Assembly (NCBI GenBank): GCA_964016885.1
Contig: OZ024746.1
Coordinates: 74,090,001 to 74,154,000, forward strand
From: Eledone cirrhosa
Lineage: Eukaryota
Length of the DNA stretch: 64,000 nucleotides
Direction of reading: 5' to 3'
Below, piece after piece: positions 14,789-62,930 of the stretch. The stretch's first letter is position 1; each line of letters opens with the position of its first letter. A program made the translations under genes and the position numbers. The notes beneath the pieces are model-generated. The model worked only from the letters and a program-made list of their open reading frames with translations. It was not told the DNA's origin and made no database searches.

Positions 14789-15041
14789 TATAAGCTTTCA
14801 CCGTATTTTAGACTAAAGAAATTTCTAGCCTGATAGTGGGGTTTATAACCCTCGGAGAAATGGAAAAAGATGAGTGTTGCTGTACATGAGAGTCGAACCC
14901 ACATCTTACTCACATCTTTGGAAAGATGTGGGTTCGACACCCATGTACGGCAACACTCATGTTTTTCCATTTCTCCGAGGGTTATAAACCCCACTATCAG
15001 ACTAGAAATTTCTTTAGTCTAAAATACGGTGAAAGCTTATA
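14789..15041. repeat. Fold-back insertion: ~119 bp inverted arms with a tRNA T-arm-like motif near the centre
   Basis: Arms 14789-14907 and 14923-15041. GTGGGTTCGACACCCAT at 14928-14944. Directly follows a (TA)n tract. Confidence 0.85.
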
Positions 15042-15156: not shown

Positions 15157-15412
15157 CCCACACAATGTCTTACTCTCTCTCTCTCTCTCTCTTCCTGTCA
15201 GTCAGTATATGTTATTAGCCAAGGTTTCACTTCCTCAGTGTTGAATCTCTTATCTTCTCTGACGCTTGTCAACTGAGAGATATAGTAAGGTGCATTATTG
15301 GTTGTGTAAAATGGTCCAATAACTTTATGTTAGCAATATTAAGTTCCCACGCTTTTGTATATCTCAAATTCCATTCAAGGGAACAGCTAGATGATGTAAG
15401 ACGGAGTATAAG

Positions 15413-15800
15413 TATCAAAATGAAAATCCGAAGGCAAGGTAAAATTCCAATCATTTAATCACGACACATGTTTCAATAAGAGATAGATCGATTGTGAAGC
15501 CATGATCGATTATCACTGATCTCATCAGGTGAACTCTGAAAACTTTTATGACCTCAACTGAAGTTAATAGCAGTCGCCGTGTCTCTGACTGATGTGTCTT
15601 CATATGAGGCAATGAATTCTGTGAGAGAACATCGTTATTTTTTTTCTCCCTCATATCAAGAATTTGAAGACAATTCATTTTCACCTGATGAGATCAGTGA
15701 TAATCGATCATGGCTTCACAATCTATCTATCTCTTATTGAAACATGTGTCGTGATTAAATGATTGGAATTTTACCTTGCCTTCGGATTTTCATTTTGATA
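15413..15800. mobile_element. Fold-back insertion: 121 bp arms, HHRs at 15459-15532 (-) and 15681-15754 (+)
   Basis: Arms 15413-15533 and 15680-15800. Plus arm reads TCAC-CTGATGA-GAT...ATT-GAAA-CATGTG-TC-GTGA and ends in (TA)n. Confidence 0.8.
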
Positions 15801-15813
15801 TATATATATATAT

Positions 15814-16824
15814 ATATAAACAAGGTTTAGTAAATAATGAAAAAGTTTCAAAATAAATTTTAAAAAATTGACTTTACCTACTATAGTTACCTTTACCGAT
15901 CGGTTTCGAATCCCAAAAATAAAACGGAGACCATACGGCCTTCGTTGCAAAGAGAGATTCTCGTCAGAAGGTTCTTTTCATTCAAAGAATATAAAATTCC
16001 TGAATTTAAATCACAAACTAGCGCTATCAAAAACTGTTCCTGGGATGAGAGTGGATGATGTAGAACAGGTTTATCAAGGGCCGTAGCAAAGATAGAGGCA
16101 AAAGGTCAAACTAGCCACCGCTGTTGCCAGCAGCAGTCGGAATGACCCGGTTTGTTCTCAAAGTTAGTGGAGGTAGTAGTAATATGAAATACGTCCCTTC
16201 ACGCACAAGTTTATTTTGAAACTTTTTCATTATTTACTAAACCTTGTTTATATTTGTTCTGGCTCGTTAATTTATTAACCCGCCATTGAACCACATTGAC
16301 ACTTGGTTGGACAATACATGCGTACCTTGGCGCCTTGTGCGTGAAGGGACGTATTTCATATTACTACTACCTCCACTAACGTTGAGAACAAACCGGGTCA
16401 TTCCGACTGCTGCTGGCAACAGCGGTGGCTAGTTTGACCTACCTCCTTTTGCCTCTATCTTTGCTACGACCCTTGATAAACCTGTTCTACATCATCCACT
16501 CTCATCCCAGGAACAGTTTTTGATAGCGCTAGTTTGTGATTTAAATTCAGGAATTTTATATTCTTTGAATGAAAAGAACCTTCTGACGAGAATCTCTCTT
16601 TGCAACGAAGGCCGTATGGTCTCCGTTTTATTTTTGGGATTCGAAACCGATCGGTAAAGGTAACTATAGTAGGTAAAGTCAATTTTTTAAAATTTATTTT
16701 GAAACTTTTTCATTATTTACTAAACCTTGTTTATATTTGTTCTGGCTCGTTAATTTATTAACCCGCCATTGAACCACATTGGCACTTGGTTGGACAATAC
16801 ATGCGTACCTTGGCGCCTTGGACG

Positions 16825-16834
<10 letters not shown>
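15814..16834. mobile_element. HHR-bearing element: ~395 bp inverted copy joined to a 483 bp-period partial tandem
   Basis: 15814-16209 is the reverse complement of 16334-16736. 16210-16337 is repeated directly at 16693-16820. Flanked by (TA)n on both sides. The near-identical ORFs 15868-16086(+) and 16464-16682(-) reflect the palindrome. Confidence 0.9.
16578..16661 (+). ncRNA. Type I hammerhead ribozyme (identical inverted copy at 15889-15972, minus strand)
   Basis: ACCTT-CTGACGA-GAATCTC...GGGATTC-GAAA-CCGATCGG-TA-AAGGT. All three stems pair, stem III is palindromic, GUA cleavage site. Confidence 0.88.
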
Positions 16835-16894
<60 letters not shown>

Positions 16895-19479: not shown

Positions 19480-20650
19480 CTGGAGCTTTGAATTATGTAA
19501 TAATTGTTTCCAGACGTGTGGACAACGTGAAAAAGTTCATTCCTTGAATTTAGGCAATCATTACTATGTTACCTTCTCAGGATATTGATCCTTTCTTCAA
19601 TGCACAAACCACAAGACGGATTCCCCCTTGCTTAGACTTAGTAATAGCTTTCCATTGAATGGAGTAATTTACGCCTGAGTCCTTGAGAGACCATACGTGG
19701 CTCGCGAGTTTCATTGACGATCGTTTGTTTGGGTATCTAAAGGTCGACTTATGGTTCAGGAAGCGTTCCTTAAACCGACCCTCGGCCATACCTACATAGG
19801 GTTTAACTTCTTGTTGATTTGGTCGGTTAGAAGTGATCACAGCTTTGTAAATTACAGCAGGTGTGTTGCATTGTTGTTGAAGGGGACAAGCTTCAGGCTT
19901 TCGGCAAGAGCATCCTGGTGGGGTGCTGCTCTTAGGGATGTTGGCCTTCATATTCTTAGCGCGGGAGTATCTTAGTTTCACCCTGTGTCTATTAAAGATG
20001 GAGCGGTATTTGTGACCTATGGGGAAGTTTCTATCTAAGAGAGCAAAAAAATATTTTCCTACATTAGTTTTAACATTGAGTGAGAAGGGCGGGGAGAACC
20101 CAAATTGTTTTTCTATTAGCAAGATTTCTTTTCCTATTGCTGTTGGTGTTAGCAGGGGAAGAAGTAATTAGTTGCGAGAAGCCGGTGTTAGTTAACGCGG
20201 CGTTGTAGTAGGGTGCAGCTCTGTCAAATATTGCTTTATTAGAGGAGAGGTTAGAGATTCTAGTACCGATATTATTCACTAAATTTCTAAAAACTGTAGG
20301 AGGGTGGCATGAGACCTTGTGTATGTTATTAAGTTTCTCATTTAGTTTATGGGTGAGTCGAAAGGTGCGTGTGTGAAGATCTAAATTTATGTCTAAGTAA
20401 TCTATGCTAGTGAGGTTGGTACCTACCGTTATCCTAAGTGCTAACCCATTAGAAGTAGTAATTAAATCTTTTTAAAACGGTGCAGGTCATGATCACGTTA
20501 ATGGCTCGATGGGGTCAGACCATCGTCGCGGTATAATCCCGTGTGGAAGTCCGGGAATCTAGTACATAACATATCTAATATAAATAAACCAACCAAGCTG
20601 CATTCGTCAGCTCTATCGAATGATCCCATTGAGACGTCGTCGAATAGTTC
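19480..20650 (-). pseudogene. Penelope-like element (Naiad-like) RT plus GIY-YIG endonuclease, 5'-truncated and frameshifted
   Basis: Minus strand across frames gives MGSFD, GLYRDDGL (RT catalytic motif), IDYLDINLDL, SCHPP, FSPPFSLNVKTNVGK, CSCRKPEACPLQQQC, VIYKA...YVG (GIY-YIG), FKERFLNH and CGLCIEE. Includes ORFs 19577-20122 and 20070-20279. Confidence 0.88.
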
Positions 20651-33717: not shown

Positions 33718-35342
33718 CCTAAACTTAACCTAAACCTAGCCTAGCCTAAACCTAGTGTAGCCTAGCCTAAACCTAGCCTAGCCTAGCCTAGCCTAGCCTA
33801 GCCTAGCCTAGCCTAGCCTAGCCTAGCCTAGCCTAGCCTAGCCTAGCCTAGCCTAAACCTAGCCTAACCTAGCCTAGCCTAGCCTAAACCTAGCCTAGCC
33901 TAGCCTAAACCTAGCCTAGCCTAGCCAAAACCTAGTCTAGCCTAGCTTAGCCTAAACCTTGCCTAACTTAGCCTAGCCTAGCCTACTGAAACAATTTTTT
34001 TTCATTTTTCTAGGCTGGAAAAATGAATAAAATGAAAAAAAATGAAAAAAATTTGAAAAACATTTTTCTTTTCATGGCTAGCCTAGCCTAGCCTAAACCT
34101 AGCCTAACCTACCCTAAACCTAGCCTAGCCTAGCCTAAACCTAGCCTAGCCTAGCATAAACCTAGCCTAGCCTAGCCTAGCCTAAACCTAGCCTAAACTT
34201 AGCCTAAACCTAGCCTAGCCTACCCTAAACCTAGTCTAGCCTACCCTAAACCTAGCCTAGCCTAGCCTAGCCTATCCTAGCCTATCCTAGCCTATCCTAG
34301 CCTAGCCTATACCTAGCCTAACCTAGCCTAGCCTAAACCTAGCCTAGCCTAGCCTAAACCTAGCCTAGCCTAAACCTAGCCTATCCTAGCCAAAACCTAG
34401 TGAAAACATTTAAAAAAATTTTTCTAGGCTGGAAAAATGAAAAAAATGAAAAAAATGAAAAAAAATGAAAAAAAATGAAAAAAAATGAAAAAAAATGAAA
34501 AAAAATGAAAAAAAATGAAAAAAAATGAAAAAAAAAAAATTTTTTCTCGAGGCTGGAAATATGAAAGAAAATATGAAAAAGTTTTTTCATTTTTCAAGGC
34601 AGGAAAATTGAAAAAAATGAAAAACGTTTTTTTTTTCATGGCTAGCCTAGCCTAGCCTAGCCTAAACCTAGCCTAACCTACCCTAAACCTAGCCTAGCCT
34701 AGCCTAAACCTAGCCTAGCCTAACCTAGCCTAGCTGGCCTAGCCAAGCCTAGCCTAAACCTAGCCTAAACTTAGCCTAAACCTAGCCTAGCCTAGCCTAA
34801 ACCTATTCTAGCCTACCTAAACCTAGCCTAGCCTAGCCTAGCCTATCCTAGCCTAGCCTAGCCTACCCTAGCCTAGCCTATACCTAGCCTAACCTAGCCT
34901 AGCCTAGCCTAGCCTAAACCTTGCCTTGCCTAGCCAAAACCTAGTCTTGCCTAGCCAAAACCTAGTCTAGCCTAGCTTAGCCTAAACCTTGCCTAGCCTA
35001 GCCTAGCCTAACCTAGCCTAGCCTAGCCTAGCCTACTGAAATTTTCTAGGCTGGAAAAATGAAAAAAAAATGAAAAAAATGAAAAAAAAAAAATTTTTCT
35101 CGAGGCTGGAAAAATGAAAAAAAATCTGAAAAAAGTTTTTTCATTTTTCAAGGCAGGAAAATTGAAAAAATTGAAAAAAAAAATGTTTTAATGGCTAGCC
35201 TAGCCTAGCCTAAACCTAGCCTAGCCTAACCTAGCCTAGCCTAAACCTAGCCTAATCTAGCCTACCCTAGCCTAAACCTAGCCTAGCCTAGCCTAAACCT
35301 AGTCTAGCCTAGCCTAAATCTTGCCTAGCCTAGCCTAGTCTA
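33718..35342 (+). repeat. (CCTAG/CCTAAA)n satellite with ~555-565 bp higher-order period and (GAAAAAAAT)n spacers
   Basis: Arrays at ~33718-33985, 34077-34400, 34641-35035 and 35194-35342. They alternate with AGGCTGGAAAAATGAAAAAAAT blocks, and each array restarts at ATGGCTAGCCTAG. Confidence 0.95.
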
Positions 35343-59585: not shown

Positions 59586-62500
59586 GATATATATTTCTAT
59601 TTATTTGCCACCAGGGCATCAAAGATTGCGACAAATACAAAGGGGGGAGTTTACATACATTTAAAAAGACGTGTAAAAAAACATATAACAAATTAAATTT
59701 AACAATCGATGTCCTCAATAGTGAGGGGCGTTGACATGGGTCGCACACACCCCCGAAAAAATGTGCACCCTCCACTTCAGGAGCACAAAGAGCGGGTGCT
59801 TCCTTCCTCTTCTCATTCTTCTCCTCTCTCACCTACAGGCTGATATAGAGAGAAGGCCCATTCACTCGGGCCATTCTCGCTACTTTCACCCACCTTTCAT
59901 AAAACTTGCTGGGGTAGAGCACCTCTCTCTCCATTCTGACCCTTCTTCTAAAGTGGTACTTGAAAAAAAAGACCAGTTGTTGGCCGGAGAGAAAGGTGTC
60001 TGACCTCAGCCCTTTCAACCTTGTCCACCATACAACTTCTTTCGCCATGGCTATCACACAGAGGAAAACCGCCTCTCCTTCGTTTTTGAAAGGGGGAGGC
60101 GGTTTGATTGTGACAATGTTCTCGGTGGTCAACCGGATTGGTCCCACCCGCGACAGTAGTCGTTCTACATAGCCCCACAGGTCAGCAACGCCCGGGCAGT
60201 GTACGAATGCGTGTGCGACGGTTTCCTCGTCACGCACGTATCTTGGACAGATCTTCTTCGAGGGTGTCTGTAGAGCTTGTCCCGAACGGGTAGAACTCCT
60301 CGGTAACATTGCCAAGCCAGGGACTGTTGGAAGTTGTCCATCGGTCCCGGCCAAACGTCCTACCGAACAGACTGGCCAGCTCGTCTTCCTCCATGCCCAG
60401 AGCCTCTCCGAGAGCGTTGTCGCACTTACTGCGCACCAACCCTCTATAGAATGTTGAGGTTGAGTCTCCACTGATTGCCGGATCCGCTTGCCAGAGGGCC
60501 GTGAGCGCTTGGGTACATTCAATGTGCCAGTCGCCCACTTTTCTCGGTCTTTGCTTGACCCAGGATTGCAGCTCGGTGAGTGAGACGAGTCTCGGAAAGG
60601 CTCGCCTCACAAACAGGGCCCACACCGGCTGACCGGTGAGGAATACCTGAAGGTGCCGTAGCCTTAATGCGTGTCTACGCATCGTCAGACACGGCATCCA
60701 CCGCCCTCCGTTCGAAGGGTGTTGACAGCAGATGGATCTTCTCACCAAAGGAGCCCGCTTCTTCCAAAGAAATCGCAAGAGCGCGCGCTCCATTTTGGCG
60801 ATTTTTTCTCTGGGCAAGGCACGACGGTCAAGCGGTAGTAGATGACGGACGCTATATAAGCGTTCGCCACCCCCGCTCGACCTTTCAGGGATAGTTTGCA
60901 CTCGGCCCACTTCTGGGCGAGTGCAAACACCTTGCCCGTTACCTCGTCCCAGTTTTTCTCCACCTGGAGGTCCGGTCCGAACCAGACCCCGAGCAGCTTC
61001 AATGGTCCCTCCGTCCAGCGTCCGACGATGCCGTCGGAGGGCATCGTTTTGCCCCTCCACGTCCCGAGTTGCAAACCGACGGACTTGTCCCGGTTCAGCT
61101 TGGCTCCTGTGAACCTTTCATATTCCTCCAGTAAGGTGCCGATCTGCCCGATTTCCGAGGCGCACGACACTATTACTGTCACGTCATCAGCGTAGGCCGA
61201 CACCGCTTTCCGCAATCACGGTTCCAAGGGGATAACCTGCAACAGCTCCAGCTTCCGCAGTAGTGGCTCGAGAGCCAGCACATACAGGAGGGAGGAGAGA
61301 GGGCATCCCTGTCGAATGGATCGCGTGATTTGGAACGGCTCCGAGATGTAGCCGTTCACCGTGACCCTCGAGCAGGTGTTGCTGCTGTGCATTGCAATAA
61401 TCCAGCCCCTGAAAACGGGTCCGAAGCCTGCCGCCGCGAGCACCGCATCCAGGTACCGATGGTCAACCCTATCGAACGCTTTAGATTGATCCAAATTGAT
61501 CAGGGCCCCACCAAAGCCGGGTTCGTTCCCTACCCTCTCTACGATGTATCGCATGAGGTGGAGGTTGTCGTGTATGGACCTGGACGGGATTGCACATGTC
61601 TGCGCTTCTCCCACCAGGTTCCCGACGACAAGCGCCAACCTCTTCGCTAACATCTTGGCCAAAATCTTTAACTCTGTGTTTAGCAGAGTTATAGGCCTGA
61701 AGTTATCTATGTCATCCCCCTTGTTCTCGTCCTTCCTCACCAGCGTGACTACGCCCTTGGTCACAGAACTGGGAATTCTCCCGTTCTGTTGCCAGTTGCA
61801 GTAGACCGCCTCGAGGAGACCGGAGAACAAGCCCGGCATCGCTACATAAAGTTCGTATGGTAGACCATCGAGACCCGGAGATTTGCGTTTGCCGCATTGG
61901 CTCAGCGCTTCCCCTATTTCAGCGGCTGAAATCGGCCTCTCGCAGGACTTCGCCTCCCCGTCCGAGAGCCGCGCCATCCCGTCGAGGTATGGACCGAAAT
62001 CCATGGCCCCACCCGGCCCGCCGCCCCTCCCGAACAGTCGTGCAAAGCGCCGTTGAAAGGCCGCGCTCATCCGCTCAGTTTCAAGGATCACGCGTCCATC
62101 CTGGTCCTTCAAAGACCGAATCGTGGACTTGTTTCCACTTTTTGCCTCTGTCACTCGGGCCCAGCTAACAGCTTTGGCTCCCTCGTTACCCAGAGCACGT
62201 ATTTTACTCCTGACAACGCAGCCCTCGTGCTTCGCATCAAAGAACTGGTCTAGGGCCGTTCTTGACGCCAGCACGCCGGCTACGTTGCCACTCCTAATCG
62301 CCTCTTCTACTCTATTTGTTAATTCCCTTTCAGTTCTATTCCTATCTGATGCTAATTCCCGACTAAAACCTACCGATTCTATTCTAATCTCTCTCTTGAG
62401 AGAGCCCCACCACCTGTTGTTGACAATTGCCCCCGTCAAACGCTGCTTAACTAGTGTGCTAATCCGCTTACTGTATGCTTTGTTTGTCGGTAAAGACAAG

Positions 62501-62595
62501 TTTAGCTTCCAGTAACCGGGTCCCTGTCTATGAGTTCTATCAAGGTTGACCACTCCGGTCACCAACTTGTGATCCGAATAGTCAACCATGAGTCT
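59586..62595 (-). mobile_element. L1/Tx1-clade LINE, 5'-truncated inside the endonuclease
   Basis: GC-rich ~3 kb block carrying an ORF2 remnant, a ~250 bp 3' UTR and a terminal AATAAA. Confidence 0.92.
59833..62589 (-). pseudogene. ORF2 (end of AP endonuclease, reverse transcriptase, CCHC knuckle), disrupted
   Basis: YSDHKLV and GPGYWKLN (endonuclease end); KSPGLDGLP, NFRPITLLN, DQSKAFDRVDH, RQGCPLS and YADDVT (RT); CPR...ETVAHAFVHCP. One in-frame stop at 61216 and frameshifts near 60810 and 60350. Confidence 0.93.
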
Positions 62596-62599
62596 TATA

Positions 62600-62930
62600 T
62601 TAGATATAGAGAGTGAGATAAGAGAGGCGGTGTCTTGGTAGATATAGAGAGGGGTAGAGTTTGGTTTTAGTAGATACAGAGAGAGGGAGTAAAAGATAGT
62701 TTTGTGTCATAGACGTACAGAGGAGGAGAGTTTGGTGGCACTCTCGGGTCCCAAATAATAGGAGGGATGGCAATAATGGGGGGAGGGGCGCTTGGGAAAT
62801 CAGTAAGTGTATTACGTTCGTAAATATGGGATTCTTGTAATATTCTTCTTTTGTCATATATAATGTTTTTTTTGTGTAAAATAAAATTATTATTAGATTC
62901 TCCAGCTGCTGTATCAATATGAATCACTTA
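62600..62930 (-). pseudogene. Possible 3' remnant of a Penelope-like element abutting the LINE
   Basis: ORF 62667-62927 IHID...FILHKKN...KRRILQESHIY resembles the GIY-YIG C-terminal R.ILES..I motif. It is followed by a C/T-rich tail. Confidence 0.35.

What the first reader, a model, noticed from the sequence alone, without database searches (positions are those of the whole stretch)
15814..16834. 483 bp-period ribozyme unit that looks copied from a circular or tandem RNA (retrozyme-like)
Seen: the plus strand 16210-16830 holds about 1.3 copies of a 483 bp unit, with 16210-16337 recurring at 16693-16820. It has one well-formed HHR (16578-16661) and no credible ORF, and is preceded by an inverted ~395 bp copy. 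The two arms are almost identical, so the insertion is young. Established: non-LTR retrozymes are tandem units of a few hundred bp with a type I HHR that produce circular RNAs. Inference: the circular permutation fits reverse transcription around a ~483 nt circle. A partial-tandem PLE pseudo-LTR is the alternative.
Basis: partly seen in the sequence, partly recalled or inferred. Interest (0 to 1): 0.75.

Follow-up and report, generated by a model that had tools for sequence, protein, structure and literature searches.

The report
Penelope-pasted two-armed hammerhead retrozyme
This is one young copy of a 483-base non-coding repeat with a predicted self-cutting RNA motif, present at hundreds of TA-microsatellite sites, often as two back-to-back arms that end at two fixed points; it is likely pasted by a Penelope-type retrotransposon enzyme, probably from a small RNA circle that has not been shown to exist.

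Summary
In detail: 483-bp period, type I hammerhead (HHR), inverted 396-bp arm, no ORF, (TA)n on both sides. The unit is a young family with 590 exact end junctions genome-wide; no ORF was attached in two samples of 56 and 92 insertions. Its 3' ends fall at two fixed sites 108 nt apart, and head-to-head insertions pair one of each (33 of 35; 38 of 41). ORF-bearing Penelope-like elements (PLEs) of this genome follow the same rule (9 of 9). So 'retrozyme or PLE' is a false choice: it is an ORF-less PLE passenger. The two arms share a haplotype in 27 of 28 cases (11.9 expected), and very young insertions hold 9-10 near-identical units, which favours repeated copying of one monomer, probably circular. 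Some templates were linear or multimeric: 4 tail-arms stop at the HHR cut site (0.45 expected), and one insertion repeats unit-specific variants in both arms. Cleavage, circles and the helper element are not shown. The kind is published, and this scan noted it before in other families and genomes.

The parts
15798..15818 (.). Left (TA)n target tract; its ATAT overlaps the 3' end of the left arm
15814..16209 (-). Left arm, 0.82 unit, unit phase 124 to 43; ends at the short 3' site (S, phase 43); 7-nt deletion
15889..15972 (-). Second copy of the type I hammerhead, in the left arm
   Evidence: CTGACGA at 15967, minus strand, same sequence
16209..16211 (.). Head-to-head junction of the two 5'-truncated arms
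16211..16693 (+). One full 483-bp unit (phase 1-483), 39% GC, no ORF
16254..16361 (+). Internal copy of the 108-nt tail between the two fixed 3' sites S (16253) and T (16361)
16578..16661 (+). Type I hammerhead; predicted cut after GTA 16656; palindromic helix III suggests action as a dimer
16667..16722 (+). Predicted long hairpin between the cut site and the S site; similar hairpin predicted in sister families B and E
   Evidence: prediction only
16694..16834 (+). Partial second unit, ends at the tail 3' site (T, phase 151); 10-nt deletion
16831..16892 (.). Right (TA)n target tract

Best explanation
It is one insertion of a young, ORF-less 483-bp hammerhead repeat family (an animal non-LTR retrozyme) that is likely mobilised in trans by a Penelope-like RT/GIY-YIG protein and probably copied mostly from a monomer RNA circle. 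Shown: ORF-less tandem units, (TA)n targets, two fixed 3' ends, one of each per head-to-head insertion, shared haplotype of arms and units, the same end rule in ORF-bearing PLEs. Inferred: a PLE protein dimer cuts both strands of (TA)n; each DNA end primes reverse transcription inside the RNA, one at S (...UUAUAU) and one at T (...CAUAU); both run on past the HHR site for up to 10 units, stop at variable points and are joined head to head. Inferred: low-activity, dimer-dependent HHR cleavage of tandem transcripts yields monomers that circularise and reset each lineage to one haplotype, while a minority of insertions copy partly cut linear multimers.
For: Ends: 33 of 35 multi-arm insertions pair S with T in the similarity-picked set; 38 of 41 complete two-arm insertions in the set picked by exact end junction, 1 S/S, 2 T/other (the sets overlap in part). 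ORF-bearing PLEs: HHR (seen in three of four families), short end and tail end into (TA)n, tails about 40-94 nt; 9 of 9 head-to-head insertions with both ends visible pair the two ends (15 loci read). One haplotype: arms agree at lineage sites in 27 of 28 insertions, 11.9 expected from random pairing; tandem units agree in 78 of 80 variant sites. L178 (8.84 + 0.36 units, 2 private changes) and L179 (10.1 + 1.9 units) are single events with exact S and T ends. Median arm is 270 nt and 28 of 99 exceed one unit, so tandems must be regenerated. HHR core, stems and a palindromic helix III are kept across sister families at about 65-80% identity. In vitro, an anole PLE starts reverse transcription at two internal sites that define the tail and is predicted to be a dimer (PMC11167929).
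Against: No helper found: the unit has no sequence similarity to the 3' ends of N1, N2 and H (shuffle p 0.22-0.79), and a profile of the family hit only independent neighbouring insertions in 119 loci of the four PLE families. Against a monomer circle as sole template: L069 has unit-specific variants 404A then 340T in the same order in both arms; partial sharing occurs 8 times against at most 2.8 expected; 4 of 40 T arms stop at phase 445-446, the cut site (0.45 expected, p 0.001), two of them after one full pass. That pile-up is not the top 5-nt window overall and S arms show none at 445-449. L065 has arms of two different haplotypes. HHR mutants of the anole PLE still insert in vitro (PMC11167929), and 8 of 9 Xenopus retrozyme dimers did not cleave in vitro (10.64898/2026.07.22.740005).
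Confidence: 0.62

Rival explanations
1. Same non-autonomous PLE passenger, but the template is always a linear, mostly uncut tandem transcript of an earlier array; arrays are regenerated and homogenised by template jumps or unequal crossing-over, not by a circle.
For: L069 shared unit-specific variants, 8 partial sharings against at most 2.8 expected; stops at the cut site after one pass; 130 of 147 encounters with the site pass it, compatible with weak cleavage; uncut RNA is the main substrate of the anole PLE in vitro (PMC11167929).
Against: Many lineage haplotypes are each fixed in all units of arms shorter than two units, which unequal crossing-over cannot make; I saw no 5' junction shared between separate insertions; most arms are shorter than one unit.
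Confidence: 0.3
2. The unit is only the pseudo-LTR of an ORF-bearing PLE, and the copies are its 5'-truncated remains.
For: Anatomy equals that of ORF-bearing PLE ends in this genome.
Against: Going 5' from either end the sequence returns to itself after 483 nt, for up to 10 units; no ORF adjoins it in 56 and 92 insertions; four sister families are also ORF-less where read.
Confidence: 0.04
3. A satellite-like or fold-back DNA repeat amplified at DNA level, with a chance hammerhead.
For: Some adjacent units share variants (L028, L077, L138), as local duplication would give; Rfam has no match.
Against: Dispersed over many chromosomes, fixed 3' and variable 5' ends, strand-polar end rule, conserved HHR with compensatory stem changes.
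Confidence: 0.04

Closest known systems
Animal non-LTR retrozymes (Cervera and de la Pena 2020, PMC7229834, passages and Discussion read; Li, Clavereau and Pollet 2026, 10.64898/2026.07.22.740005, parts 1-3 of 5 read)
   Same: Non-coding tandem unit with one type I HHR, GC under 45%, dispersed multimers; PLEs proposed as helpers, and pLTR kinship shown in Xenopus.
   Different: Unit 483 bp (150-450 bp in the first paper, 51-972 bp in the second); HHR is closer to the PLE form (helix II 7 bp, helix I 5 bp); circles are not shown here. The parts I read do not describe insertion ends, head-to-head arms or (TA)n targets ('inverted', 'microsatellite', 'target site' occur 0 times in PMC7229834).
Penelope-like elements and non-autonomous derivatives such as Chlamys-dependent MRC1 (Craig et al. 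2021, PMC8557442, passages read)
   Same: 5' truncation, partial tandems, inverted 5' copy, tail often at one end only, (TA)n preference, multicopy head-to-tail non-autonomous forms.
   Different: No ORF; tail 108 nt against 30-40 nt in the paper; no 3' similarity to an autonomous family found; the one-S-one-T rule is counted here, not just 'often'.
PAc Poseidon element in vitro (Frangieh et al. 2024, PMC11167929, parts 1-2 of 4 read)
   Same: Two internal start sites define the tail; both DNA strands are cut and extended; dimer predicted; AT-rich target.
   Different: There the start site is not homologous to the cut DNA; here both sites end in AUAU that overlaps the (TA)n target, and the two sites are assigned one per DNA end.
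PLE hammerheads (Cervera and de la Pena 2014, PMC4209133, parts 1-2 of 4 read)
   Same: Long helix II, short helix I, palindromic helix III, dimer-dependent low activity; circle-templated tandem formation proposed.
   Different: Sits in an ORF-less unit; 39-nt structured loop II.

Membership tests
Animal non-LTR retrozyme | Short tandem unit of a few hundred bp | tested here: met
   483 bp, arms up to 10.1 units
Animal non-LTR retrozyme | One type I HHR per unit | tested here: met
Animal non-LTR retrozyme | Non-coding, GC under 45% | tested here: met
   longest frame 81 codons, GC 39%
Animal non-LTR retrozyme | Canonical HHR with 6-bp helix I, 4-bp helix II and loop-loop contact | tested here: inconclusive
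   helix I 5 bp, helix II 7 bp, as in PLE HHRs; tertiary contact not assessable
Animal non-LTR retrozyme | Self-cleavage | not testable with these tools
   only indirect: 4 of 40 T arms stop at the site
Animal non-LTR retrozyme | Expression as monomeric circular RNA | not testable with these tools
   needs RNA from the organism
Autonomous PLE | RT plus GIY-YIG ORF | tested here: not met
   none in the unit or adjoining 56 and 92 insertions
PLE-type insertion | 5' truncation, partial tandem, inverted 5' copy | tested here: met
PLE-type insertion | Tail at one end only (two RT start sites) | tested here: met
   33 of 35 and 38 of 41; tail 108 nt
PLE-type insertion | AT-rich / (TA)n target | tested here: met
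Non-autonomous PLE derivative | 3' similarity to an autonomous family | tested here: not met
   four families checked, no match; other PLE families of the genome not checked

The most novel reading that the evidence does not exclude
A PLE protein dimer holds one small ribozyme-derived RNA circle and primes both ends of a double-strand break at two fixed, non-equivalent sites on it, copying round the circle from each end; this single asymmetric step explains PLE tails, tandems and inverted arms, and the HHR acts as a monomer bottleneck that resets each lineage.
Probability: 0.45. Interest if true: 0.7.

Novelty: new member of a known kind. Interest (0 to 1): 0.45.

Why it matters
How PLEs make tandem, inverted, tailed insertions, and whether retrozymes really move through RNA circles with PLE help, are stated as open in the papers read (PMC8557442, PMC7229834, 10.64898/2026.07.22.740005). 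This family is short, young (about 1% from its majority in the 56-insertion set), polymorphic and present in hundreds of copies, so it gives counted rules (one S and one T end, one haplotype per insertion, a minority of cut linear templates) and a 483-nt substrate for an in vitro test. As an object it is a further member of a published class.

Tried and rejected
Rfam scan of the window: 0 matches. Pfam scans of PLE fragments: 0 families, so PLE clade labels (Neptune-like etc.) are recalled from motif look, not from a call. No RNA holder listed for the stretch; the four listed runs are contigs of unrecorded kind from one study and only confirmed loose ends in ATAT at 16361 and 16736. Helper search: GIY-YIG or thumb-region queries for four PLE families, profile and pairwise comparison, a non-palindromic helix III pattern (11 matches, all look like sporadic mutants), tblastn of 5' flanks: no ORF-linked relative. 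The L032 match beside a PLE ORF proved to be a separate insertion of sister family B in its own (TA)n. Classical L1 twin priming with non-overlapping arms was rejected: arms often overlap by hundreds of bases. A first count of stops near the cut site (17 against 5.3) included misaligned arms and was replaced by the stricter count on arms at least 95% identical (12 against 3.7 for 445-458); phase 242-257 showed a similar stop rate. Target-site duplications cannot be read inside (TA)n. Sequence look-up in earlier scan notes: nothing. Paper searches listed no paper on a cephalopod retrozyme or on the one-short-one-tail rule as a count; subscription papers and supplements were not seen.

Full report
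Observation. The element spans 15814-16834 between two (TA)n tracts. The plus arm is 1.3 copies of a 483-bp unit, the minus arm 0.82 copy, joined head to head at 16209-16211. I number the unit from 16211 (phase 1). Each arm carries a type I hammerhead; the predicted cut is after phase 446. With the core held open it has helix I 5 bp, helix II 7 bp and a 3-bp helix III with a palindromic loop; two copies can pair through it in a 10-bp duplex. The free fold is not the active one and Rfam does not detect it. No frame exceeds 81 codons. The arms differ from their lineage by three substitutions and two deletions.

Family. A search of the 3.0-Gb genome gave 1,352 candidates, of which 40 were scored. 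Exact patterns gave 590 short-end junctions with (TA)n, 127 tail-end junctions (narrower pattern) and 1,154 HHR matches including sister families; reversed controls gave 0. I mapped 56 insertions picked by similarity (57 found, one segmental duplicate dropped) and 92 picked in genome order by an exact end junction (100 loci read, 3 dropped, duplicates merged). The sets overlap in part. None had an ORF adjoining the unit. Lineages at 97% and 89% identity include very young insertions, and sister families B to E at about 65-80% have the same ORF-less anatomy where read. Across them the HHR core is kept, helix I and II change in compensating pairs, and helix III stays palindromic or nearly so.

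Ends. 3' ends fall at phase 43 (S) or 151-156 (T), both ending in ATAT that overlaps the target; 5' ends are spread over the unit. Head-to-head insertions pair S with T in 33 of 35 multi-arm cases (the other two are disrupted or three-part) and in 38 of 41 complete two-arm cases in the second set, with one S/S and two T/other. Four ORF-bearing PLE families of this genome have two such ends into (TA)n, 40 to 94 nt apart, three with an HHR visible just upstream, and 9 of 9 head-to-head insertions with both ends visible pair the two ends. This is the published PLE footprint: truncation, partial tandem, inverted copy, tail often at one end (PMC8557442, passages), with the tail explained by two internal RT start sites (PMC11167929, parts 1-2 of 4). 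The window's element is such a case: S on the left, T on the right.

Template. The two arms agree at lineage-diagnostic sites in 27 of 28 informative insertions, against 11.9 if arms were paired at random; tandem units agree at 78 of 80 variant sites. L178 and L179 hold 8.8 and 10.1 near-identical units between exact S and T ends. Median arm length is 270 nt and 28 of 99 arms exceed one unit, so copying linear tandems alone would shrink the family below a unit; something regenerates tandems from one monomer haplotype. A circle is the simplest candidate, as proposed in PMC4209133 and PMC7229834. This step is inference.

Against a circle as the only template: in L069 two unit-specific variants stand in the same order in both arms, so the template was a mixed multimer; partial sharing occurs 8 times against at most 2.8 by chance. 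Four of 40 T arms stop at phase 445-446 (0.45 expected), two after a full pass, which points to HHR-cut linear monomers and dimers; S arms stop slightly further in (451-458), and the window is not the strongest stop site overall. Most encounters pass the site (130 of 147). L065 joins two haplotypes, so two RNAs can serve one event.

Helper. Not identified. The unit's HHR-to-tail region is no closer to N1, N2 or H than to shuffles, and the family profile found no ORF-linked relative in 119 loci. N2 is young (95-100% identity, frames to 785 aa) with a 94-nt tail and is the first candidate to test; this is a guess.

Verdict. It works like a PLE insertion and meets the testable retrozyme criteria; a 2026 preprint already argues that animal retrozymes are non-autonomous PLE derivatives (10.64898/2026.07.22.740005, parts 1-3 of 5). 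It is not an autonomous PLE. I read this scan's earlier notes only after the counts above; they report the same two-armed pattern for other unit sizes in this and other genomes, and call the host a cephalopod, which I did not test. New member of a known kind; interest 0.45 for the counted mechanism clues.

Noticed in passing
window 15407-15806: A different head-to-head pair (127-nt arms at 98%) with its own HHR-like motif (CTGATGA at 15685 plus and 15528 minus); its right end supplies the (TA)n into which this element inserted.
   Followed up: partly
window 14789-15041: Fold-back of 119-nt arms, 96% complementary, 15-nt spacer.
   Followed up: no
window 19577-20471, minus: Broken PLE ORF fragment with a GIY-YIG-like motif; its family (N1) has 59,102 candidates in the genome.
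   Followed up: partly
window 6012 minus and 6145 plus: Head-to-head HHR pair resembling the 3' end of the young N2 PLE family.
   Followed up: no
window 59833-62706, minus: Frameshifted non-LTR RT element, young-looking, GC 56%.
   Followed up: no
window 33735-35342: (CCTAG)n-like tandem arrays interleaved with A-rich units.
   Followed up: no
L079 and L080: A variant in units 1 and 3 but not 2, as a two-unit circle would give; could be chance.
   Followed up: partly
L178 (G000:C1:82.116-82.121 Mb), L179 (C1:149.205-149.211 Mb): Very young 9- and 12-unit single insertions; best loci for expression tests.
   Followed up: partly
L108, L168, L184, L194: Sister families B to E with different palindromic helix III (CCGCGG, CCGTACGG, CCGCGCGG, CCGAYCGG); B has 2,142 candidates.
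   Followed up: partly
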